This document shows, piece after piece, positions 3,727 through 30,468 of a stretch of DNA of 32,000 nt. The notes below the pieces were generated by a model, which saw only the letters and a list, made by a program, of their open reading frames with translations, did not search any database and was not told the origin of the DNA. Numbering within the stretch: the stretch's first letter is position 1; every line of letters begins with the position of its first letter. The stretch is from the NCBI RefSeq assembly GCF_000172995.2, contig NC_014729.1, forward strand, positions 2,460,001 to 2,492,000. The letters are read 5' to 3'. The position numbers and the translations under genes were made by a program. The DNA is from Halogeometricum borinquense DSM 11551 (GTDB lineage: Archaea; Halobacteriota; Halobacteria; Halobacteriales; Haloferacaceae).

Positions 3727-5490
3727 ATGTCGAGTGGGCTAGAACAGCAACTCATCGATCTGTTGACCGTCTTTCTCATCGCGGGTGGCGTCGGCGCACT
3801 GTTGGCGAAAATCGGGCGGGTGCCGTACACTATCGCGCTCCTCTTAGCCGGATTCGCCGCCTCCATCGCCGGACTGGAAATCGACATTACTCTCACGCAC
3901 GACATCATCCTCCTCGTCGTCCTCCCACCGTTACTGTTCGAGGGCGCGGCGACGACGGACATCGACGAGTTCCGGTCGAACTTCTCGGTCATGCTAACGC
4001 TGGCAACCGTCGGCCTCGCCGCCTCTATCGTCGTTGTCGGCGTTGTCTCCACGAGACTACTCGGCTACTCGTTACTTCTCGGCCTCCTGTTCGGCACCAT
4101 CATCCTCCCGACGGACCCCGTATCGGTACTGGCGTTGTTCAAGCAGGTTGGCGCGCCTGAACGACTCTCCGTCCTCGTAGAGGGCGAGAGCCTGCTCAAC
4201 GACGGCGTCGCCGTCGTCATCTTCTCTGCACTGCTCGCACTGGTCGAAGCGGGCGATAGCGCGGCAGATCTTGCGACGCTAGAGGGAATCGCCGAACTCG
4301 CCGGTGGGATCATCTTCTCCGCCGGTGGAGGTGCCATCGTCGGACTCGCAGCAGGCTACCTCATCTACCGGCTGATGGCGAATCTCGACGAACACATGAC
4401 TGAAATCATTCTCACGGTCGTTCTCGCCTACGGTGCCTTCCTCGTCGCAGAACACTACCTCCACGTCAGCGGTGTCATCGCCACCGTTGCCGCCGGACTC
4501 CTCATCGGCAACCGTGGCCGTGAGTACGCCATGTCGCCGCAGACGAAGACGGCCGTGTTCAACACGTGGGAGACGGCGGCGTACGTCGTCAACACGTTTA
4601 TCTTCCTTCTCCTCGGCGTGAAAACGCCGATTCGACAGATCATCGCCGAGGCGGAACTGCTCTTGCCCGCAGTCGTCCTCGTCCTCGTCGCACGCGCGGT
4701 TGCGGTCTACCCCCTGACGGAGATTGCAAACCGGTTCTCGGACGCAAACGTCCCGCGGAACTACCAGCACGTTCTCGTCTGGGGCGGCCTCCACGGATCG
4801 ATCCCCATCGCGCTCGTCCTCGGACTCCCCGAGGCTGTCGGCCCGCGACAGCAACTCCGCGTCCTCGTGTTCGGTATCGCCGCGTTCAGCCTCGTCATAC
4901 AGGGACTGTCGATGAAACGGTTCCTCCGCGCCGTCGGCGTCGAGACTTCTGGGAAGGAAGAAGAGCTGTATAATCTCCTCCTCACGCGGGCGAAAGCAGT
5001 TGACGAAGCGCTGGATGAGTCCGAACGACTCCACGAGCGAAATCTCATCCGAACCGACGTGTACGAGCGGTTCCAACGCGAGTACGGCCGCGAAAAAGAG
5101 GAACTGAACACCGTCATTCGTGACCTGCTGGAAGCCGAACCCGCACTGCTTAAACAGGAACTGTTGCAGAGCGAACGGCGCGTTCTCCACGCCGAAGAGA
5201 GCGCGATCACCGACGCGGAGTTGAGTGGCCAACTCTCGACTGAACTCGCAGAGGACCTCATCGCCGAAGTCCACCAGAAACAGGCCCGTCTCGACCGCGG
5301 CGAAACGACGGTGACAAGCGACATCGAACGCGAGGGCTACCGAGAGTTCTGGCGCGAACGCGCAACGGCGTTCGGTCTCGATGTCGGTGAGGACGTACTC
5401 GACGAAACAGCGATGGAAGAACTCACGGACGAATCGGGGTCGAACACGTCCCCGCTCGACGACGAGACTGAAGGTGCCGGAACCGACTGA
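3727..5490 (+). CDS. Na+/H+ antiporter, CPA1 (NhaP-type), with a ~170-aa acidic coiled-coil cytoplasmic tail
   Basis: 587 aa with about 11-12 TM helices. The motifs LLFEGAATTD and ILPTDPVSVLALFKQVGAPERLSVLVEGESLLNDGVAVVIF are characteristic of Na+/H+ exchanger family proteins. Confidence 0.9.
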   Translation: MSSGLEQQLIDLLTVFLIAGGVGALLAKIGRVPYTIALLLAGFAASIAGLEIDITLTHDIILLVVLPPLLFEGAATTDIDEFRSNFSVMLTLATVGLAASIVVVGVVSTRLLGYSLLLGLLFGTIILPTDPVSVLALFKQVGAPERLSVLVEGESLLNDGVAVVIFSALLALVEAGDSAADLATLEGIAELAGGIIFSAGGGAIVGLAAGYLIYRLMANLDEHMTEIILTVVLAYGAFLVAEHYLHVSGVIATVAAGLLIGNRGREYAMSPQTKTAVFNTWETAAYVVNTFIFLLLGVKTPIRQIIAEAELLLPAVVLVLVARAVAVYPLTEIANRFSDANVPRNYQHVLVWGGLHGSIPIALVLGLPEAVGPRQQLRVLVFGIAAFSLVIQGLSMKRFLRAVGVETSGKEEELYNLLLTRAKAVDEALDESERLHERNLIRTDVYERFQREYGREKEELNTVIRDLLEAEPALLKQELLQSERRVLHAEESAITDAELSGQLSTELAEDLIAEVHQKQARLDRGETTVTSDIEREGYREFWRERATAFGLDVGEDVLDETAMEELTDESGSNTSPLDDETEGAGTD

Positions 5491-5598
5491 CGAAGTGACC
5501 GACACGCCGACTGACGAAGTGACCGACACGCCGACCGATGAAGTGACCGACACGCCGCTGACGAAGTGACCGACACGCCGACCGATGAAGTAACCGCG
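5483..5598. repeat. 24-bp tandem repeat, about 4.8 copies (CCGACTGACGAAGTGACCGACACG)
   Basis: Copies lie at 5483-5506 and 5507-5530 (identical), 5531-5554 (2 substitutions), 5555-5577 (1-nt deletion) and 5578-5598 (degenerate). The antiporter stop codon TGA (5488-5490) lies inside copy 1. Confidence 0.95.
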
Positions 5599-5650: not shown

Positions 5651-6667
5651 ATGCGCTCCAATCGGTCTTCTCGGCGGCGTGTCCTCGCTGTCGCGGGAAC
5701 AATCGGGGTCTCAGCCGTCAGCGGATGCACGAACCGAATCTCGACGCTCGCTGACGACCTCGGATCGAACAGCAGTCGGCAGTCGAACGCGACTATCACG
5801 TTCCGACTGACCGGCCGGACATCGACGCTCCGCGAACGGTACGTCAAGGACCTAAACGAGACGCGCGTTCCGTGGGACGAAGACGCCCTCGCCGCGGCCG
5901 TCAACGGGACACCGTACACGACGCAGTTCACCGAACCGTTTGTGACCCGAGAGCCGACGTGGGCAAAACACAACGGGACGTACTACCACCTCGACGAAGT
6001 AGTCGTCGGCGAAGAGAAAGTCACACAGCCGGTGCTTCGACTCAGAGACGAGGGTCGAATCGAAAACGGAGAAGCCGACGCACCGAAACACGTCGAGAAA
6101 GGAACGCTCCCCGAATCGGATCAGAAAGCCGTGGAAGTCGCCTACATGGCTGCTCGCGCACGCGGCAACATTGGGGGTGTTCCGTGGGGACTCGTCCAAC
6201 GCGGCGGCTACGTCTACCGGAATGCGGAAACGGCGAAGGCGAGCGAACTGCTCGACGGTGATGGGCCCGACTACGTCGCCTATCGGGGCCACGTCTGGCA
6301 GGTCGAAACGCAGCGTGAGACGTTCTACGAGGCGGTGTATCGTCCGGACGTCGAACCGGTCGCGGAGACAGCAGACGAAATCGAGGAGGTACTGCGCGGA
6401 CGACTCGTCGGGGCGCGAATCGACCCCGAGTCGCTTTCCCAGTCGGAACGTGACGTATTCCGCGAGGCGCAGAACGGCTACACCGCAGAACATCCGTTCC
6501 CCGAGGCGTTCGTTTCGATACTGAAGCGATTGGATGAACGGGCCTACATCGACGGTAACGTGACGAAAGACGCCGGGACGCAGGACTACCCGGAGCATGA
6601 CGTGATTCGCTACGGAGACGAATACTTCGAGTACAGACTGCGATTGGACGAAGCGAGCGAAAAGTAA
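5651..6667 (+). CDS. Tat-signal lipoprotein, function unknown
   Basis: 338 aa. The N-terminus MRSNRSSRRRVLAVAGTIGVSAVSGC combines a twin-arginine motif, a hydrophobic region and a lipobox Cys. The mature part is acidic and carries several N-x-S/T sequons. Confidence 0.75.
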   Translation: MRSNRSSRRRVLAVAGTIGVSAVSGCTNRISTLADDLGSNSSRQSNATITFRLTGRTSTLRERYVKDLNETRVPWDEDALAAAVNGTPYTTQFTEPFVTREPTWAKHNGTYYHLDEVVVGEEKVTQPVLRLRDEGRIENGEADAPKHVEKGTLPESDQKAVEVAYMAARARGNIGGVPWGLVQRGGYVYRNAETAKASELLDGDGPDYVAYRGHVWQVETQRETFYEAVYRPDVEPVAETADEIEEVLRGRLVGARIDPESLSQSERDVFREAQNGYTAEHPFPEAFVSILKRLDERAYIDGNVTKDAGTQDYPEHDVIRYGDEYFEYRLRLDEASEK

Positions 6668-24298: not shown

Positions 24299-25036
24299 CT
24301 ACTGTGGGGCGAACCGCCCTCGTTCACGGGAGAGAATCCGCTCCCAGAGCGTGAACAGGGCGCTATTCAGTTCGTACCGACGGTTTACGTCGCGCGCCCA
24401 CACGTCGTCTGTGAACAAGAGGTGTTGGAACCGCCGAACGGTCGGCGTCAAATCATCCATCGTTTTCTCACCAACGTAATAGGCAACAGTCTCCTCACGG
24501 GTGCGAGCGACTAACTCCGGCGGTACCGGGAGACCGCACTCGGTGGCGACGTAGTCGAACCACTCCAAGTGCGTGATCGCGTCGGCAAAGGCGAATCGAT
24601 CAACGAATCCTGACACCCGATCAATCGCCGGGCTTCCTTCATAGAGTACGTCCCGCGGACGACTGAACCGCGGGAGCGACACGTGATCCAGCGTATCGGC
24701 GTACTTACGGGCCACGCGTCGAAGTCGCCAGTCGGCGTAGTGCGTCGGCCCGGTCAACGCCAGTTCGTACCAAAGCGGGGTCCACTCCAAAAACGGCGGA
24801 CCGAACGCGGCGTCGGCGAGTAAGTCGGCGACGATGGTCTGGGCAACTTCAACGGCCACATCGCCACCGGTTCGGTTGGCACGCATCGCCGCCTCCGCCT
24901 CGTCAGCGAGCGCAGGAAAATCGCCCGTCGGAAACCCCATCCCTTCCGCAACCCGGATAACGTAATCCGCGCCAGGCCGATACCAGTCAGCGAAGTCCGC
25001 AGGAGTCCGCAGTGGGGCGAGTGCGAGAACGGTCAC
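24299..25036 (-). CDS. hypothetical protein, last gene of the MinD-like block
   Basis: 245 aa with a GTG start, acidic, Trp-rich, with no TM segment or signal. It has high third-position GC, and lies 46 nt downstream of and co-oriented with 25083-25640. Confidence 0.65.
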   Translation of the reverse strand: MTVLALAPLRTPADFADWYRPGADYVIRVAEGMGFPTGDFPALADEAEAAMRANRTGGDVAVEVAQTIVADLLADAAFGPPFLEWTPLWYELALTGPTHYADWRLRRVARKYADTLDHVSLPRFSRPRDVLYEGSPAIDRVSGFVDRFAFADAITHLEWFDYVATECGLPVPPELVARTREETVAYYVGEKTMDDLTPTVRRFQHLLFTDDVWARDVNRRYELNSALFTLWERILSRERGRFAPQ

Positions 25037-25082
25037 ATCGGCCCTTTGGCCTGCGATGGTATAGGTAATCCGACCTGACTAG

Positions 25083-25640
25083 TCATCTGTCCAATTGGTC
25101 AGTCAGACCCCACTCTTCGGCACGCGACTGCGCTTCCTGTCGTGCCTCGGCCTTGATGGCCTCGATTCGGTCGGCGTCCGCAAGGAACTCCTCGACCGAA
25201 CTCTGTTCGTCCGCCAACCGATGGTCGGGCGCGGCATCTCGGGTCCGCTCTGCGAGTTCCGGGTCGGCCGCAAGGCGGTCCGCCGGTCGCGCAGGCGGAA
25301 CGCGACACGTCTCGTCCCGATGAGCGACAGCCACGTCCTCAGGGTCGAGTTCGAACAGTTCGACGCGGTAAGGTCCCGCGGCGTCGAGCGCCGCGAGAGC
25401 GTCGGGACCGCCGCGGTCCGTCGCGGCGTCGTAGGCGAGAACCGGAACCCCCTCCTCGAACGTCAGGACAGTTGCGTCGTCGCCACCACCGAGGAGCGAC
25501 CCCTGTGGTTCGAAGACGACGTATCCGGTAAGTTCTCGGTCGAGCACCGCCGCGAGCGTTTTGTCAGCATCGCTCACGACGCGTGACTGAAGGAGATCAC
25601 CCTCGGGAATCCGAAACGGTGAGTCCGACTGCACGGTCAC
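25083..25640 (-). CDS. hypothetical acidic protein translationally coupled to the MinD/ParA ATPase
   Basis: 185 aa. The GTG start overlaps the MinD stop (GTGA at 25637-25640). It has an N-terminal globular domain of about 110 aa, an acidic linker and a C-terminal amphipathic helix (EEFLADADRIEAIKAEARQEAQSRAEEWG). Confidence 0.65.
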   Translation of the reverse strand: MTVQSDSPFRIPEGDLLQSRVVSDADKTLAAVLDRELTGYVVFEPQGSLLGGGDDATVLTFEEGVPVLAYDAATDRGGPDALAALDAAGPYRVELFELDPEDVAVAHRDETCRVPPARPADRLAADPELAERTRDAAPDHRLADEQSSVEEFLADADRIEAIKAEARQEAQSRAEEWGLTDQLDR

Positions 25641-26410
25641 ACCCGGTCCGGAAGCACGGCACTTCGGAAGCGGTCCGCGACGCCCGCCGCGTCACCGTCG
25701 CGCACGTCGAGATTTGCGGCCGCCTCGTAGAACGCGTCGGCCGCCGGATCCTCGGGTGCGTGGGCCAAAAGCGGTTCGCCCGCCCGTCGCGCGGCCCTGA
25801 CGGCGTCGCTCTCGGGGACCGACGCCAGCGTCGTCCCGCCGAAGTAGCGCGATGCCTGTTCTGCAATGTTCTCTGTGTCCTCGTCGGGCCGGACGCGGTT
25901 GAAGAGGACGCCGGCCGTTTCAGTGCCGTAGGAGCGAGCGTACTCCTGTACCTTCAGTCCGTCCGAGAGGGATGGAACGGTCGGTTGGAGGACCACCACG
26001 ACTCGGTCGGCGAGAACGACGGGGAGAACGGCGCTTTTCGATCCGAGCGCGGCGGGTGAGTCGAGGAGGAGAACGTCCGTGTCGGCGGCGAGTTCAGCGA
26101 CCACTTCGCGGAGTCGGGCGGGGTCGGCCGCCTCGAATGCGGCGAGACTCGTCCCGCAGGGGACGACAGACATCCCGAAACGGTCGTAAACGGCGTCTTC
26201 GACGCTCGCATCGTGCCCCTCGACTAAGAGGTCGTGGAGCGTCACGTCGGCGTCGTCCAAGCCGGTGTGAAACAGGAGGTTCGCCATCCCCGTGTCGGCG
26301 TCGATAACGGTCACGTCGTACGTCTCGGCGAGAGCCATTCCGAGCGCCAGCGTACTCGTTGTCTTACCCGTGCCACCCTTCCCGCTGGCGACGGCGAACG
26401 CTTCGACCAT
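25637..26410 (-). CDS. MinD/ParA-family P-loop ATPase
   Basis: 257 aa. It has the deviant Walker A (VASGKGGTGKTTSTLALG), then VIDADTGMANL, and a Walker B-like VLLLDSPAALG. Confidence 0.9.
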   Translation of the reverse strand: MVEAFAVASGKGGTGKTTSTLALGMALAETYDVTVIDADTGMANLLFHTGLDDADVTLHDLLVEGHDASVEDAVYDRFGMSVVPCGTSLAAFEAADPARLREVVAELAADTDVLLLDSPAALGSKSAVLPVVLADRVVVVLQPTVPSLSDGLKVQEYARSYGTETAGVLFNRVRPDEDTENIAEQASRYFGGTTLASVPESDAVRAARRAGEPLLAHAPEDPAADAFYEAAANLDVRDGDAAGVADRFRSAVLPDRV

Positions 26411-26499
26411 ACTCGCGCCTCGCGGTTCCCCGGGTTAAAGATTCGGACACGCGATGCGCTCGTCAGTGTCCGATGAGAAGTGAATCAAGACAGCCGAGT

Positions 26500-27183
26500 T
26501 CAGCGATGAGGCTGCTTTCGCTCCCGTTTCCGCTTCTCCTTCCGCTTTCGCCTTTCTTTCTCCTCTTTCCGTCTCCGCTTCCGCTTTTCGCTTCTTCCGT
26601 TCTCCTTTCGCTTCCGCTTCTTCCTCCGTTTTCGCTTCGACCGGTTGCCGTTGTTGCTATCGCTACAGACGGTTCCACACCGGTTCGTGAACATGTCTCG
26701 GGGTGCATCCAGGTTCGAGGGATGCGTACAGGCGTCTCGTAACGTCCCCTCGATGCTCTCGAAGCAGGTCAGTTCGTCGAGCCATTTCTGCGCACACTGG
26801 TTCGGGTTACACCAGACATTTCCATCTGGTGACTCGACGGCGAGGATGGCCTCGCCCGCCTCGACGGTGTAGCGAAACGCGTGTTCGCGGTCGCCACCGA
26901 CCTTACAATCGGGCGTCTCGACCGTGCGCGTTCGACAACCGCCTTCGTTCGTCGCGCGGAGATACACCGTAAGAGGACTTGTACGCGCGAGTCCCGTCGC
27001 AACGACCTGACTGCACCCGCAGAAGTACAACTGATCCGGGGTCTCACCGGCGGCCGCTGTTCCCGTCGCGGCCCGTAACCCGACTGCACCTAGTCCGGTC
27101 GCTCCAACGGACTTTAGCACGGCCCGCCGGTTCACTGTTCGTCGTGTCGATTCGTCTCCCTCAGTTCGCGTTGGTGACCACAT
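26500..27183 (-). CDS. Tat-signal, cysteine-rich secreted protein with a polybasic (Lys/Arg) C-terminal tail; function unknown
   Basis: From ATG 27183 it reads MWSPTRTEGDESTRRTVNRRAVLKSVGATGLGAVGLRAATGTAAAG (Tat-like signal). A ~140-aa domain with 10 Cys follows, then SKRKRRKKRKRKENGRSEKRKRRRKEEKERRKRKEKRKRERKQPHR. The track start at 27327 lies in AT-rich sequence and I rejected it. The tail reading frame cannot be confirmed from ORF logic alone (see findings). Confidence 0.6.
   Translation of the reverse strand: MWSPTRTEGDESTRRTVNRRAVLKSVGATGLGAVGLRAATGTAAAGETPDQLYFCGCSQVVATGLARTSPLTVYLRATNEGGCRTRTVETPDCKVGGDREHAFRYTVEAGEAILAVESPDGNVWCNPNQCAQKWLDELTCFESIEGTLRDACTHPSNLDAPRDMFTNRCGTVCSDSNNGNRSKRKRRKKRKRKENGRSEKRKRRRKEEKERRKRKEKRKRERKQPHR
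26510..26639. repeat. 130-nt low-complexity tract with no A on the plus strand (T-free, purine-rich on the coding minus strand)
   Basis: Direct reading shows only C, T and G between 26510 and 26639, made of reiterated cgctt/ccgctt/ctcctt units. It encodes the K/R/E tail of the preceding feature. Confidence 0.9.
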
Positions 27184-27372
27184 GGCTGTGTGAATGTTGC
27201 CGCTACGAGACAGCCCCACCAACCGAATCAGAATCCCGTAGAGACGATAGGACAGACGAGAATCACGAGTATAAGTATTATTCAGGTGACTAGAACGGTC
27301 CGGATCGAGAAAATAAATTGAGAACACGTACCCGCCCGAACGCCTTTGCCTCCAACCACCCTACGCTCGGCC

Positions 27373-28926: not shown

Positions 28927-30468
28927 ATGACGACTTCGAACGAAGCGGTCGGCGGGCCGGTCGTTCGCGTCGCCGGGGGTTCGCCGCATCGAACCGACGT
29001 GAGCGCCGTCGTAGACGCTGCGAGAGAGGCCACCGAGACGGCGACCGTTCGAGAGACGGGACCGACGGGAGCGGACGCACTCGAACCGTTACTGTTGGTC
29101 ACGGTGGCGAATAAGACAGCGTTCTACGCCACGCCGTCGCTCGACACCGTCCGTAACGTGATACACGCCGCTGAATCGGGGAAATCCGCGGACGCTCTCG
29201 CTGACGGTGCAGACGCTGTAGTCGAGAGTGACGGAACGCGGTTGCCAGTTCCCGACGAAGGGCCGTTGCGTGTCGGTTGCCGTCGTGTACTCGGTCGATG
29301 TGGATGGGTGAATCCGACTGAACCACCCACAGAATCCGTTCTCGACGCCGTTTCCGACGACTCCGAGAGCGTGTGTACGGAGATACACCGAATCGGCCTT
29401 CTCGGTCGCGGACGTGGCGACGCACGCGCAGACCGGCCGGTCGCTGAGGGGTGGGCAACGGCACGGAAAACCGACGGCGACACCGTACTCGTGGTGAACG
29501 CGAACGACGCTGACGAGCGAAACCGAACGGACAGCACGCTCGTTGAAGGCGATGCCGGGGGCGTCGTAGACGCCGCAATGGCCGTCGCACACCTCGTGGA
29601 AGCCGAGGACGTAATCATGTACGCCCAGACGGGGTCGATGGCGGCCGAACGCCTCTCGGCCGCCGCCTCGCGCTACCGGGACGAGTACGGCGACGCACCG
29701 CAGGTGGCCGTCGGTCCCGAACGGTATATCGCAGGCGAACCGACGATGGCGCTTGAATCCTTAGAGGGGAACGACCGATTGGAAGCACGCTTACGCCCGC
29801 CGGGACCGGAAACGCACGGTCTGTACGGCCGGCCGACCGTCATCCATACGCCGCGGACGTTGCTACAGGTGCGCGAAGCGATTCTCCGGCCCGAGGAGTT
29901 CGACGCCGACGATGCTGACCCGGGAACGCGCGTCGTCACCGTCACTGGCGACGTGGACTCACCCGCGACGGTCGAACTCACAACAGGAGCACCGCTTCGG
30001 GCGGCCGCGGCGGCCGTGGATAGAACGGAGACGAAGATGGCCATCGTCGGCGGGCAGTTCGGCGGCGTCACCCGCCATCTGGACCACACGCTCTCTGCAC
30101 CCGCGTTGTCGGGGGCGAATCTCGGTACCGAAGGCGTCGTCGAACTGTTCGGTGACGACCGGTGTGCGCTGGCGACCGTGGGGTCGCGCGCGCGGTTCGC
30201 GTCCGAAGAGAACTGCGGGCGGTGCGTCCCGTGCCGCGAGGGGACAACGCAACTCACCGACCTCCTGCGCGACATCTACGCGGGCGACTACGACGACGAT
30301 ACGCTTCGGGAGTTGACGCGGACGATGCGAAACACGAGTACGTGTGACTTCGGCCGAAGCGCGGCGCGAACCGTCGAGACGGCGATGGCCGCATTCGAGG
30401 CAGAATTCGAGGCGCATACTCACGGCCGATGTCCAACGGGGCAGTGTGACGCGCAGGCGGGACAGTGA
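28927..30468 (+). CDS. NuoF-like protein (NADH dehydrogenase subunit F family Fe-S binding domain), divergent
   Basis: 513 aa. ENCGRCVPCREGTTQL plus a downstream STCDFG matches the NuoF 4Fe-4S (N3-type) cysteine motif. VVNANDADERNRTDSTLVEGD resembles the NuoF core, but the Gly-rich FMN loop is degenerate (GRGRGDARADRP). Confidence 0.8.
   Translation: MTTSNEAVGGPVVRVAGGSPHRTDVSAVVDAAREATETATVRETGPTGADALEPLLLVTVANKTAFYATPSLDTVRNVIHAAESGKSADALADGADAVVESDGTRLPVPDEGPLRVGCRRVLGRCGWVNPTEPPTESVLDAVSDDSESVCTEIHRIGLLGRGRGDARADRPVAEGWATARKTDGDTVLVVNANDADERNRTDSTLVEGDAGGVVDAAMAVAHLVEAEDVIMYAQTGSMAAERLSAAASRYRDEYGDAPQVAVGPERYIAGEPTMALESLEGNDRLEARLRPPGPETHGLYGRPTVIHTPRTLLQVREAILRPEEFDADDADPGTRVVTVTGDVDSPATVELTTGAPLRAAAAAVDRTETKMAIVGGQFGGVTRHLDHTLSAPALSGANLGTEGVVELFGDDRCALATVGSRARFASEENCGRCVPCREGTTQLTDLLRDIYAGDYDDDTLRELTRTMRNTSTCDFGRSAARTVETAMAAFEAEFEAHTHGRCPTGQCDAQAGQ

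What the first reader, a model, noticed from the sequence alone, without database searches (positions are those of the whole stretch)
26500..27183. Orphan Tat-exported, 10-cysteine protein ending in a ~46-residue Lys/Arg tail
From ATG 27183 the ORF has a twin-arginine signal (STRRTVNRRAVLKSVGATGLGAVGL...TGTAAAG). A ~140-aa domain with 10 Cys follows (FCGC, GGC, PDC, WCNPNQC, TCF, DAC, NRC, VCS). It then ends in SKRKRRKKRKRKENGRSEKRKRRRKEEKERRKRKEKRKRERKQPHR-stop. Every other protein in the window is acidic, as expected for a salt-in halophile, so a secreted protein with this polycationic tail is a striking outlier. A Tat signal plus a Cys-rich secreted domain is the general architecture of several halocin precursors. 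I see no resemblance to the halocin sequences I remember, though. It could therefore be a new antimicrobial, or an effector that binds acidic cell surfaces, S-layers or extracellular DNA. It sits 90 bp upstream of, and co-oriented with, a MinD/ParA module, and is divergent from a 61-aa single-TM protein.
Basis: partly seen in the sequence, partly recalled or inferred. Interest (0 to 1): 0.8.

Follow-up and report, generated by a model that had tools for sequence, protein, structure and literature searches.

The report
Secreted cysteine-rich protein with polybasic tail
This is a real but uncharacterised Halogeometricum borinquense gene for an exported, cysteine-rich beta-sandwich protein; it is not an orphan, because it belongs to an undescribed haloarchaeal family whose members tend to end in short basic tails, and here that tail has grown to an extreme +25 charge.

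Summary
The ORF 26500..27183 (-) is exactly as described: a twin-arginine signal, a ~135-aa domain with 10 Cys, and a 46-aa tail (17 R, 15 K, 7 E, no hydrophobic residue, net +25). It is Hbor_26010 of Halogeometricum borinquense.

"Orphan" is wrong. Profile searches find about 120 sequence clusters. Every named source organism is a haloarchaeon, and none of the proteins matches Pfam or NCBIfam. They share RR...FCGCSQ...NPNxCA...CG motifs.

The core models confidently (pLDDT 90, pTM 0.85) as a beta-sandwich. It has no significant structural relative in PDB or BFVD.

The nearest homologues (59-70% identity) have tails of only 3-31 residues, so the long K/R tail is species-specific. It arose from a degenerate 39-bp purine repeat. 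Three H. borinquense alleles keep it in frame with no indels. Across the family, C-termini are significantly more basic than in background proteins (p=1.6e-8).

Gene neighbourhood is not conserved, so the MinD link is coincidental. There are no homologues on plasmids or phages, and no match to any Pfam or NCBIfam model. Nothing tested supports a halocin.

The most likely reading is a secreted disulfide-stabilised binding module whose disordered basic tail tethers it to anionic envelope or matrix polymers. Its function is untested. Interest is moderate.

The parts
26500..27183 (-). Complete ORF, 227 aa plus stop. It is Hbor_26010 / C499_15430 (ADQ68154.1) of Halogeometricum borinquense DSM 11551.
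   Evidence: Searches give the ORF. Searches give a 100% identical database protein on the 2.82-Mb chromosome. GC3 is 0.67 in both core and tail in this frame.
27046..27183 (-). Predicted Tat signal peptide (residues 1-46). The n-region carries the twin arginine N-R-R-A-V-L-K (RR codons 27124..27129). The h-region is SVGATGLGAVGL. The c-region is RAATGTAAA|G.
   Evidence: The sequence is. RR is >=90% conserved across 49 family members. A profile search of PDB hits only Tat transit or signal peptides: PsbQ', PSII 5-kDa, SCO3963. Pfam TAT_signal is hit weakly in relative P0074. The cleavage site is inferred, and TatFind/SignalP were not run.
26641..27045 (-). Mature Cys-rich core (residues 47-181). 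It is a 7-stranded beta-sandwich plus a small helical Cys-rich sub-domain with 10 Cys. The family-invariant residues are F54-C55-G56-C57-S58-Q59, N126-P127, C130-A131 and C169-G170.
   Evidence: Alignments A1 to A4. AF2 core model pLDDT 89.8, pTM 0.85. No Pfam or NCBIfam hit. Foldseek gives nothing below E=0.02.
26503..26640 (-). Polycationic low-complexity tail (residues 182-227; 17 R, 15 K, 7 E; net +25). It consists of about 3.5 imperfect 13-aa (39-bp) repeats.
   Evidence: Its length and frame are kept in three H. borinquense alleles, with 2 synonymous and 4 nonsynonymous changes against CP048739. It is absent from the nearest homologues.
26509..26643 (.). Homopurine/homopyrimidine tract that underlies the tail. 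It is unique in the window.
   Evidence: TRF arrays span 26525..26638.
27265..27285 (-). AT-rich element (gaataatacttatactc) in the 189-nt divergent intergenic region. It is a candidate TATA/BRE promoter element for the gene.
   Evidence: Read from the sequence only. This is an inference with no transcript data.

Best explanation
Hbor_26010 is a genuine, fast-evolving, stand-alone chromosomal gene. Its product is exported through the Tat pathway.

Shown:
- Twin-arginine signal motif.
- Membership of an undescribed family (RR signal, then FCGCSQ ... NPNxCA ... CG). Every source that names an organism names a haloarchaeon.
- A confidently modelled beta-sandwich core with no close structural relative.
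- The same module also sits directly after the Tat signal in multidomain extracellular-type proteins.

Inferred:
- After signal cleavage around AAA|G, the acidic ~135-aa core is stabilised by five disulfides. Two invariant pairs probably staple strand 1 (C55, C57) to the C-terminal sub-domain (C130, C169). The core acts as an extracellular binding or scaffold module.
- The C-terminus is an intrinsically disordered, basic, low-complexity tail, which is a family trend.
- In H. borinquense this tail was expanded to +25 by slippage or duplication of a 39-bp purine repeat.
- The tail most likely acts as a non-specific polyanion tether. It would hold the protein on the highly acidic haloarchaeal envelope or matrix (S-layer glycans, exopolysaccharide, extracellular DNA) rather than letting it diffuse away.

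The descriptive part is well supported (about 0.85). The tether mechanism is a hypothesis (about 0.3). The stated confidence is for the explanation as a whole.
For: - Gene reality: the identical protein occurs in several independent assemblies. Three alleles keep all 10 Cys and the tail frame. GC3 favours the annotated frame: 0.67 against 0.53 and 0.44. Core dN/dS is 0.40, below 1.
- Family: 57 hits with the word-indexed profile search, and 122 clusters at 50% identity with the exhaustive search.
- Named sources are all haloarchaeal: Halogeometricum, Haloarchaeobius, Haloferax and Halapricum.
- 89% of stand-alone members have an even Cys count, yet Cys positions differ between subfamilies. This favours disulfides over a fixed metal site.
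- Fold: pLDDT 89.8, pTM 0.85.
- Fusions of the module to Fasciclin, VWA, FG-GAP and Ferritin_2 domains, plus tandem copies, point to an extracellular structural or adhesive role.
- Tail trend: the family's last 20 residues average net +1.1, against -1.8 in 53 background haloarchaeal genes (Mann-Whitney p=1.6e-8). 45 of 132 members end in Arg. The whole proteins average net -10.8.
- Other members also have strongly basic tails: P0030 +23, and P0031, P0054, P0055 and P0029.
- The tail has no hydrophobic residue, so it looks like a polyanion binder rather than a membrane-inserting peptide.
Against: - The nearest homologues have very short tails or none (RGD, RGN, GGPPQR), so the core works without a long tail.
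- Within-species tail changes are 2 synonymous to 4 nonsynonymous. This is compatible with neutrality, and the counts are tiny.
- At 3-4 M salt, simple electrostatic attraction is strongly screened (general physical chemistry).
- Exporting +25 charges against an inside-negative membrane potential may be difficult (general knowledge).
- The h-region is only 12 uncharged residues before Arg37, which may fall short of TatFind's rule as I remember it.
- No expression, localisation or binding data exist, and no paper mentions the locus tag.
- The AF2 helix predicted for the tail is typical of charged low-complexity sequence and is not evidence of structure.
Confidence: 0.4

Rival explanations
1. 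The long K/R tail is a selectively neutral by-product of repeat slippage in an unconstrained disordered C-terminus. Only the beta-sandwich core has a function, and the tail neither helps nor harms.
For: - The tail is encoded by a degenerate 39-, 27- and 6-bp purine repeat.
- It is absent from the 59-70% identical homologues.
- Family tails vary widely in length (3-71 aa) and composition (GNGN, GPP, RGRG, KGKG).
- Frameshifted tails occur in relatives: P0012 against P0009, plus H. baliensis and Halapricum.
- Tail dN/dS is 0.56, from 6 changes.
Against: - The family-wide shift toward basic C-termini in otherwise acidic proteins is highly significant. This argues for selection on charge.
- A slippage-prone repeat shows no indel among three alleles that differ at 5% of nucleotides.
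- GC3 of the tail equals that of the core in the annotated frame.
Confidence: 0.3
2. It is a new protein halocin or another secreted antagonistic effector. Either the polycation or the Cys-rich domain would damage competing haloarchaea.
For: - It shares the outline of halocin precursors: a Tat signal plus a Cys-rich secreted product. Reviews PMC3387779 and PMC3831642 describe this outline.
- Halogeometricum isolates produce unidentified halocins (PMC3831642).
- Distribution among isolates is patchy. Protein evolution is fast compared with neighbours: dN 0.04 against 0 in minD, DUF8572 and DUF8116.
- Protease-activated secreted precursors exist in haloarchaea (PMC12893001).
Against: - No match to any Pfam or NCBIfam model.
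- The gene is chromosomal, and there are no homologues on 72,556 plasmids or 50,697 phage records. Known halocin genes lie on megaplasmids (PMC3831642).
- No conserved immunity, transporter or protease neighbour was found at seven loci.
- The module is fused to adhesion-type domains in relatives.
- The tail lacks any hydrophobic or amphipathic character.
- dN/dS of 0.4 is not positive selection.
Confidence: 0.15
3. The Cys (and, in relatives, His) residues bind a metal or cofactor that is loaded in the cytoplasm, which would explain Tat export. The protein would then be an extracellular metallochaperone or redox protein, and the tail would be incidental.
For: - Four Cys are invariant: C55, C57, C130 and C169.
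- Motifs in relatives are CxCx3CxC and CGxPPCEHPG.
- About 43% of members have His as the predicted first mature residue, at a fixed distance from FCGCSQ. This recalls a His-brace.
- One fusion is to a Ferritin_2 domain.
Against: - The N-terminal His and the CEHPG motif are absent in this protein and its subfamily.
- Cys counts are even in 89% of members, and the positions change in pairs between subfamilies.
- Multidomain relatives lack most of the Cys but keep the fold-level match (P0101, P0128).
- No Foldseek match to cupredoxins, LPMOs, CopC or Fe-S proteins.
- Tat use is the default for haloarchaeal secretion (PMC6525301 abstract).
Confidence: 0.1
4. It is an annotation or sequence artefact. 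Either the tail is not translated in this frame or the ORF is not expressed.
For: - The +1 frame of the tail reads as a family-like G/R/S-rich tail.
- Tails in relatives are prone to frameshifts.
- RefSeq re-annotations disagree on the start codon.
- No expression data exist.
Against: - Independent assemblies of the type strain give the identical sequence, and two other strains keep the same frame.
- GC3 is highest in the annotated frame.
- The start of the tail (CSDSNNGN...) aligns in frame with homologues (CSDNNKNDDK..., CSDGESGS...).
- The stop is conserved in three alleles.
Confidence: 0.03

Closest known systems
Halocin C8 precursor (ProC8: HalI plus HalC8) and the protein halocin H4
   Same: Haloarchaeal, with an N-terminal Tat signal and a cysteine-rich secreted product. 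HalC8 has 10 Cys by my recollection. The Tat and precursor features are described in PMC3387779.
   Different: - No sequence-model match.
- Here the Cys-rich part is an N-terminal ~135-aa beta-sandwich. In ProC8 it is a C-terminal 76-aa peptide released from an immunity moiety.
- The gene is chromosomal, not on a megaplasmid, and no plasmid homologues were found.
- It ends in a polybasic tail that halocins lack.
Generic Ig-like / fibronectin-III beta-sandwich domains
   Same: A seven-stranded sandwich in an extracellular protein. The best Foldseek hits are FN3, Ig and TCR domains.
   Different: All hits have E>=0.02, TM<=0.35 and rmsd 5-10 A, so there is no evidence of homology. An extra Cys-rich helical sub-domain is stapled onto the sandwich.
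Polybasic polyanion-binding tails. Examples: the Lys-rich C-terminus of mycobacterial HBHA, which binds sulfated glycans, and the glycosaminoglycan-binding basic tails of secreted semaphorins (PMC11295036).
   Same: A disordered, strongly cationic C-terminal extension on a secreted or surface protein, attached to a folded binding domain.
   Different: There is no sequence relationship. Function at molar salt is untested. The HBHA comparison rests on my own knowledge and is an analogy only.
Known haloarchaeal surface-anchoring signals: the Tat lipobox and PGF-CTERM/archaeosortase A (PMC3387779, PMC7157517)
   Same: A Tat-exported haloarchaeal protein that may stay at the cell surface.
   Different: There is no lipobox Cys after the h-region. 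There is also no PGF motif and no C-terminal hydrophobic helix. If the protein is retained, a different, non-covalent mechanism must be responsible.

Membership tests
Undescribed haloarchaeal 'FCGCSQ / NPNxCA' Tat-secreted beta-sandwich family (defined here) | Twin-arginine signal followed within about 35 residues by F-C-G-C-S-Q | tested here: met
   R19, R20 and F54-Q59 are invariant or >=90% conserved in 49 sequences. The register is shown.
Undescribed haloarchaeal 'FCGCSQ / NPNxCA' Tat-secreted beta-sandwich family (defined here) | N-P-(N)-x-C-A motif and a distal C-G motif | tested here: met
   N126, P127, C130 and A131 are invariant. C169 and G170 are >=90% conserved. Profile E-values reach 1e-87.
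Undescribed haloarchaeal 'FCGCSQ / NPNxCA' Tat-secreted beta-sandwich family (defined here) | Low-complexity G/R/N/P/K-rich C-terminal tail that is usually net basic | tested here: met
   The family's last 20 aa average net +1.1, against -1.8 in the background (p=1.6e-8). This protein is the extreme at +25.
Halocin C8-like / known halocins | Sequence similarity to a curated halocin model or known halocin | tested here: not met
   No Pfam-A or NCBIfam family at E<=0.1. I did not verify independently which halocin models these libraries contain.
Halocin C8-like / known halocins | Encoded on a megaplasmid | tested here: not met
   The gene lies on 2.8-4.0 Mb chromosomal contigs. tblastn of the core against PLSDB gives no match.
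Halocin C8-like / known halocins | Precursor processed to a small hydrophobic Cys-rich C-terminal peptide plus an immunity moiety | tested here: not met
   The architecture is reversed: a Cys-rich folded N-terminal domain and a hydrophilic polybasic C-terminus. This is a test of architecture only. Processing itself was not tested.
Halocin C8-like / known halocins | Growth inhibition of sensitive haloarchaea | not testable with these tools
   This needs overlay or agar-diffusion assays.
Tat substrates | Twin-arginine consensus (S/T-R-R-x-F-L-K-like) followed by a moderately hydrophobic h-region and an A-x-A cleavage site | tested here: met
   The sequence is N-R-R-A-V-L-K, then SVGATGLGAVGL, then RAATGTAAA|G. 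The family profile matches Tat signal peptides in PDB chains.
Tat substrates | Positive call by TatFind or SignalP, or experimental TatC dependence | not testable with these tools
   These predictors are not available here. The h-region has only 12 uncharged residues before Arg37, which is borderline for TatFind as I recall its rule.
Archaeal lipoproteins / archaeosortase (PGF-CTERM) substrates | Lipobox Cys at the end of the h-region, or a PGF motif plus a C-terminal TM helix | tested here: not met
   The first Cys lies 35 residues after RR, behind the charged stretch GETPDQLY. The C-terminus has no hydrophobic residue.
Ig-like / FN3 fold superfamilies | Significant structural superposition on a solved member | tested here: inconclusive
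   The best Foldseek result is E=0.02-0.05 with TM 0.2-0.35. The topology class is plausible, but homology is not shown.
ER/K single alpha-helix | Roughly balanced, alternating E and K/R blocks | tested here: not met
   There are 7 E against 32 K/R. The AF2 helix is not taken as evidence.

The most novel reading that the evidence does not exclude
Basic low-complexity C-terminal tails (RG-, KG- or KR-rich) could be a previously unrecognised, non-covalent cell-surface or matrix retention signal in haloarchaea. They would tether a new family of Tat-exported, disulfide-rich beta-sandwich modules, and the domains fused to them, to the polyanionic S-layer, EPS or eDNA at molar salt. Hbor_26010 would be the most extreme natural example. 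This would add a third way of displaying surface proteins, beside lipobox and PGF-CTERM anchoring.
Probability: 0.15. Interest if true: 0.7.

Novelty: new variant of a known kind. Interest (0 to 1): 0.42.

Why it matters
Haloarchaeal proteomes are strongly acidic, and their known surface-anchoring routes are covalent (lipobox, archaeosortase). This family is absent from Pfam and NCBIfam and has no detectable structural relative. Its members are acidic overall but systematically end in basic disordered tails. That pattern points to an unexplored way of retaining or targeting secreted proteins at molar salt, and it defines a new domain that could be added to domain databases. If the alternative halocin reading were right, it would instead give a gene to one of the many unassigned Halogeometricum antagonistic activities. 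At present it is an uncharacterised secreted protein with one eye-catching, lineage-specific feature.

Tried and rejected
- Pfam-A and NCBIfam scans of the protein gave nothing. The PDB sequence-profile search matched only Tat signal peptides.
- Foldseek was run on the full-length model and on the core-only model against PDB, and on the core-only model against BFVD. No hit had E<0.02.
- A functional link to MinD/ParA or the 61-aa membrane protein is rejected. The neighbourhood differs at L005-L008, L009, L010/L011 and L012. minD also appears to have its own TATA-like box about 27 nt upstream of its ATG.
- Plasmid or viral origin is rejected: tblastn found no match in PLSDB or INPHARED.
- Frameshift origin or mis-framing of the tail was considered, because the +1 frame gives a family-like G/R/S tail. 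It is not supported by GC3 (0.67 against 0.53 and 0.44). It is also not supported by the conserved frame in three alleles.
- A lipoprotein or PGF-CTERM anchor is rejected from the sequence.
- A relation to the HFX_0892 protease-activated precursor (PMC12893001) has no support in the text. That protein's active part is an alpha-helical N-terminus, and the paper does not mention cysteines.
- The first genome-contig scan, with the close subfamily, returned nothing and did not even recover H. borinquense. The broader alignments A1 and A2 were too diverse for that tool.
- The second scan found only two loci, and both are frameshifted.
- A literature search for the locus tag returned nothing.
Full report
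**Observation**

The window carries an ATG-initiated ORF at 26500..27183 on the minus strand (227 aa).
- An N-terminal region with N-R-R-A-V-L-K and a 12-residue uncharged stretch, followed by RAATGTAAAG.
- A ~135-residue segment with ten cysteines.
- A 46-residue C-terminus made almost only of Arg (17), Lys (15) and Glu (7), with no hydrophobic residue.

The tail is net +25. The core has pI 4.7 and net -7. The whole protein has pI 10.07. Called genes in the neighbouring ~15 kb have pI 4.05-5.43.

The tail is encoded by a 135-bp homopurine tract (26509..26643). This is the only such tract in the 32-kb window, and the only place in any of six frames with >=18 K/R in 30 residues. Tandem Repeats Finder detects a degenerate repeat there with periods 39, 27 and 6 bp. 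That corresponds to about 3.5 imperfect 13-residue units.

**Identity**

The protein is 100% identical to 'hypothetical protein Hbor_26010 / C499_15430' (ADQ68154.1) of Halogeometricum borinquense DSM 11551. It lies on the 2.82-Mb chromosome. No paper in the searchable library mentions the locus tag.

**Not an orphan**

- A search with the signal plus core found 12 homologues at 59-70% identity and two distant ones. Nearly all come from metagenomes or read-archive (Logan) assemblies.
- A profile of these found 57 proteins.
- An exhaustive HMM search of 1.84 billion cluster representatives found 122 clusters at E<=1e-3, and 51 at E<=1e-10.
- Named sources are all haloarchaea: Halogeometricum, Haloarchaeobius, Haloferax sp. 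MBLA0076 and Halapricum.
- None of these proteins has a Pfam domain on record. My own Pfam and NCBIfam scans of the query were empty.

Across 49 diverse members, the invariant or near-invariant positions are the twin arginine, F54-C55-G56-C57-S58-Q59, N126-P127, C130-A131 and C169-G170.

89% of stand-alone members have an even number of cysteines (mostly 8, 10 or 12). The additional Cys positions differ between subfamilies. This pattern fits disulfides better than a fixed metal site.

**Fold**

- AlphaFold2 with the 49-sequence alignment models the core at pLDDT >90.
- The core-only model has mean pLDDT 89.8 and pTM 0.85. It shows seven strands followed by short helices.
- Foldseek against PDB (both models) and BFVD (core model) gives only generic Ig, FN3 or TCR sandwiches at E>=0.02 and TM<=0.35.
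- The PDB sequence-profile search matches only Tat signal or transit peptides. This indirectly supports the signal assignment.

So the core is a beta-sandwich with no demonstrable relative.

**Domain architecture in relatives**

The same module, always directly after the Tat signal, also occurs fused to other domains. These are Fasciclin (P0101), VWA (P0125), FG-GAP (P0118), Ferritin_2 (P0128) and unknown Cys-containing repeats (P0072, P0074, P0084). It also occurs in tandem (P0019, P0062). These are extracellular, adhesion-type partners. Some fused versions have lost most of the cysteines.

**The tail**

- Nearest homologues. They end 3-31 residues after the last Cys. Examples are RGD, RGN, SGGPPDR, SDGGSSGGLRRRGRGR, SDGESGSSEGDHRKKPRRPR and SDNNKNDDKRDNGNDKGKSNKNKK.... 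The 46-residue K/R/E tail is therefore specific to H. borinquense.
- Within the species. Three alleles (DSM 11551, CP048739 and RZHH01000002) differ at up to 5.1% of nucleotides in this gene. They still keep the tail at exactly the same length and frame with no indel. Against CP048739 there are 2 synonymous and 4 nonsynonymous changes. GC3 of the tail in the annotated frame (0.67) equals that of the core and exceeds the other frames (0.53, 0.44).
- Across the family. Low-complexity G/R/N/P/K-rich tails are the rule, and they are basic. The last 20 residues of 132 stand-alone members average net +1.1, against -1.8 for 53 neighbouring haloarchaeal genes (Mann-Whitney p=1.6e-8). 45 of 132 end in Arg, although the whole proteins average net -10.8.
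- Other extreme tails. Several members approach the H. borinquense extreme. They include P0030 (net +23...KKRKAKKGKKGKRGRKGGHGRGRGKGGH), P0031, P0054, P0055 and P0029.

I therefore read the tail as an expansion, by repeat slippage or duplication, of a family-typical basic disordered C-terminus.

**Evolutionary rate**

Between DSM 11551 and CP048739 the core shows 13 synonymous and 16 nonsynonymous changes (dN/dS about 0.40). All ten Cys are retained. The adjacent minD, DUF8572 and DUF8116 genes show 44 substitutions, all synonymous. The gene is constrained but fast-evolving, as is common for secreted or surface proteins.

**Context**

In all H. borinquense assemblies the gene sits between a 61-aa membrane-protein gene plus a BAT/HTH_10 regulator on one side and minD-DUF8572-DUF8116 on the other.

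At the homologue loci the neighbours are unrelated:
- An FG-GAP/ASPIC-type protein.
- An N6/N4 methyltransferase and paralogous unknown proteins.
- OsmC and phosphoribosyltransferase genes.
- trp genes and an ATP-grasp gene.
- HhH-GPD and DUF7332 genes.

No operon partner, immunity gene, transporter or protease is conserved. A TTTAA box about 27 nt upstream of the minD ATG suggests that minD has its own, leaderless-type promoter. This is read from the sequence and is an inference. The MinD association is coincidental.

**Halocin hypothesis**

Evidence for it is limited:
- Reviews confirm that halocin precursors carry Tat signals and that known halocin genes lie on megaplasmids (PMC3387779, PMC3831642).
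- Halogeometricum isolates produce unidentified halocins (PMC3831642).

Evidence against it is stronger:
- No match to any Pfam or NCBIfam model.
- The gene is chromosomal.
- tblastn finds no relative in 72,556 plasmids or 50,697 phage records.
- The architecture is the reverse of ProC8.
- The tail has no amphipathic character.
- The recently described HFX_0892 protease-activated precursor appears unrelated.

The halocin reading is not excluded, but it has no positive support beyond the general outline.

**Most likely mechanism**

Shown:
- A twin-arginine signal motif.
- Family membership.
- A confident beta-sandwich model.
- Fusion partners of extracellular type.
- The basic-tail trend.
- In-frame conservation of the tail within the species.

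Inferred:
- Export by Tat and cleavage near AAA|G.
- Five disulfides, with C55 and C57 probably paired to C130 and C169.
- The core acts as an extracellular binding or scaffold module.
- The disordered polycation tethers the protein to anionic envelope or matrix polymers.

Caveats:
- Charge screening at molar salt.
- The cost of exporting +25 charges.
- A borderline h-region, with Arg37 after 12 uncharged residues.
- Tail-less close homologues.
- A complete lack of expression data.

**Verdict**

'Orphan', the MinD link and the halocin analogy are not supported. The polycationic tail is lineage-specific in its extreme form, but it exaggerates a real and previously undescribed family trait. The finding defines an unannotated haloarchaeal secreted-protein family. 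It is of moderate interest and its function is untested.

Noticed in passing
window 26435-26440 (minus strand), upstream of minD ATG 26410: A TTTAA box lies about 27 nt upstream of the minD start codon. This spacing is typical of a haloarchaeal TATA box on a leaderless transcript. It suggests that minD-DUF8572-DUF8116 is transcribed independently of the Cys-rich gene.
   Followed up: no
window 24299-26410 (minD, DUF8572, DUF8116): Between H. borinquense DSM 11551 and strain CP048739, these three genes carry 44 substitutions and all of them are synonymous. This is very strong purifying selection on an archaeal MinD module whose partner proteins are of unknown function.
   Followed up: partly
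window 25083-25640 and 24299-25036: The local Pfam scan found nothing for these two proteins. The precomputed table lists PF26239 (DUF8572) and PF26426 (DUF8116) for the identical genes. The local Pfam copy apparently lacks these recent families.
   Followed up: no
family members P0014-P0074 (predicted signal cleavage region): In about 43% of family members the predicted cleavage site A-x-A/G is followed by His exactly 7-8 residues before FCGCSQ (for example ASA|HEVTEGPVFCGCSQ). The mature protein would then start with His, which recalls a His-brace. The H. borinquense subfamily has Gly, Ala or Val at that position.
   Followed up: partly
L009/L016 about 6380-6530 (Haloarchaeobius baliensis); L017 about 5000-5500 (Halapricum sp. 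CBA1109): Both copies of the family found in species-representative isolate genomes are frameshifted relative to intact metagenomic relatives. The GGPCGxPPCEHPG motif continues in another frame. They may be pseudogenes or assembly errors. P0012 likewise looks like a tail-frameshifted version of P0009.
   Followed up: partly
window 27135 (GTG) and downstream; RefSeq WP_239524429, WP_241432418, WP_242492741: RefSeq re-annotations shorten the N-terminus to 211 aa (GTG start, MNRR...) or 206 aa (MLKSVG...). The 206-aa version removes the twin arginine altogether. Homologues carry 15-25 residues before RR, which favours ATG 27183.
   Followed up: partly
window 26503-26640, +1 frame: Read one base out of frame, the tail gives GRSENGGRSGSERRTEEAKSGSGDGKRRKKGESGRRSGNGSES. 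This G/R/S-rich sequence resembles typical family tails, but GC3 favours the annotated frame. An ancient frameshift origin of the K/R tail cannot be excluded.
   Followed up: partly
window 28927-30468 (+) and downstream: A stand-alone NuoF-like protein (Complex1_51K plus NADH_4Fe-4S) lies next to an 82-aa ORF and an aldehyde:ferredoxin oxidoreductase gene. This is an unusual pairing. The NuoF-like gene also shows 16 nonsynonymous changes between strains.
   Followed up: no
L007 1430-2113; L008 1603-2280 and 2526-3158: In two related metagenome contigs the homologue lies next to one or two paralogous ~210-227-aa proteins of unknown function (52-72% identical to each other) and an N6/N4 DNA methyltransferase. 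This may be a mobile or variable region.
   Followed up: partly
Genome-contig collection: The first scan used the patterns TPDQLYFC and WCNPNNC and did not recover H. borinquense itself, although the TPDQLYFC peptide is present in the gene. The species representative may lack the gene, or that stretch may be masked.
   Followed up: no
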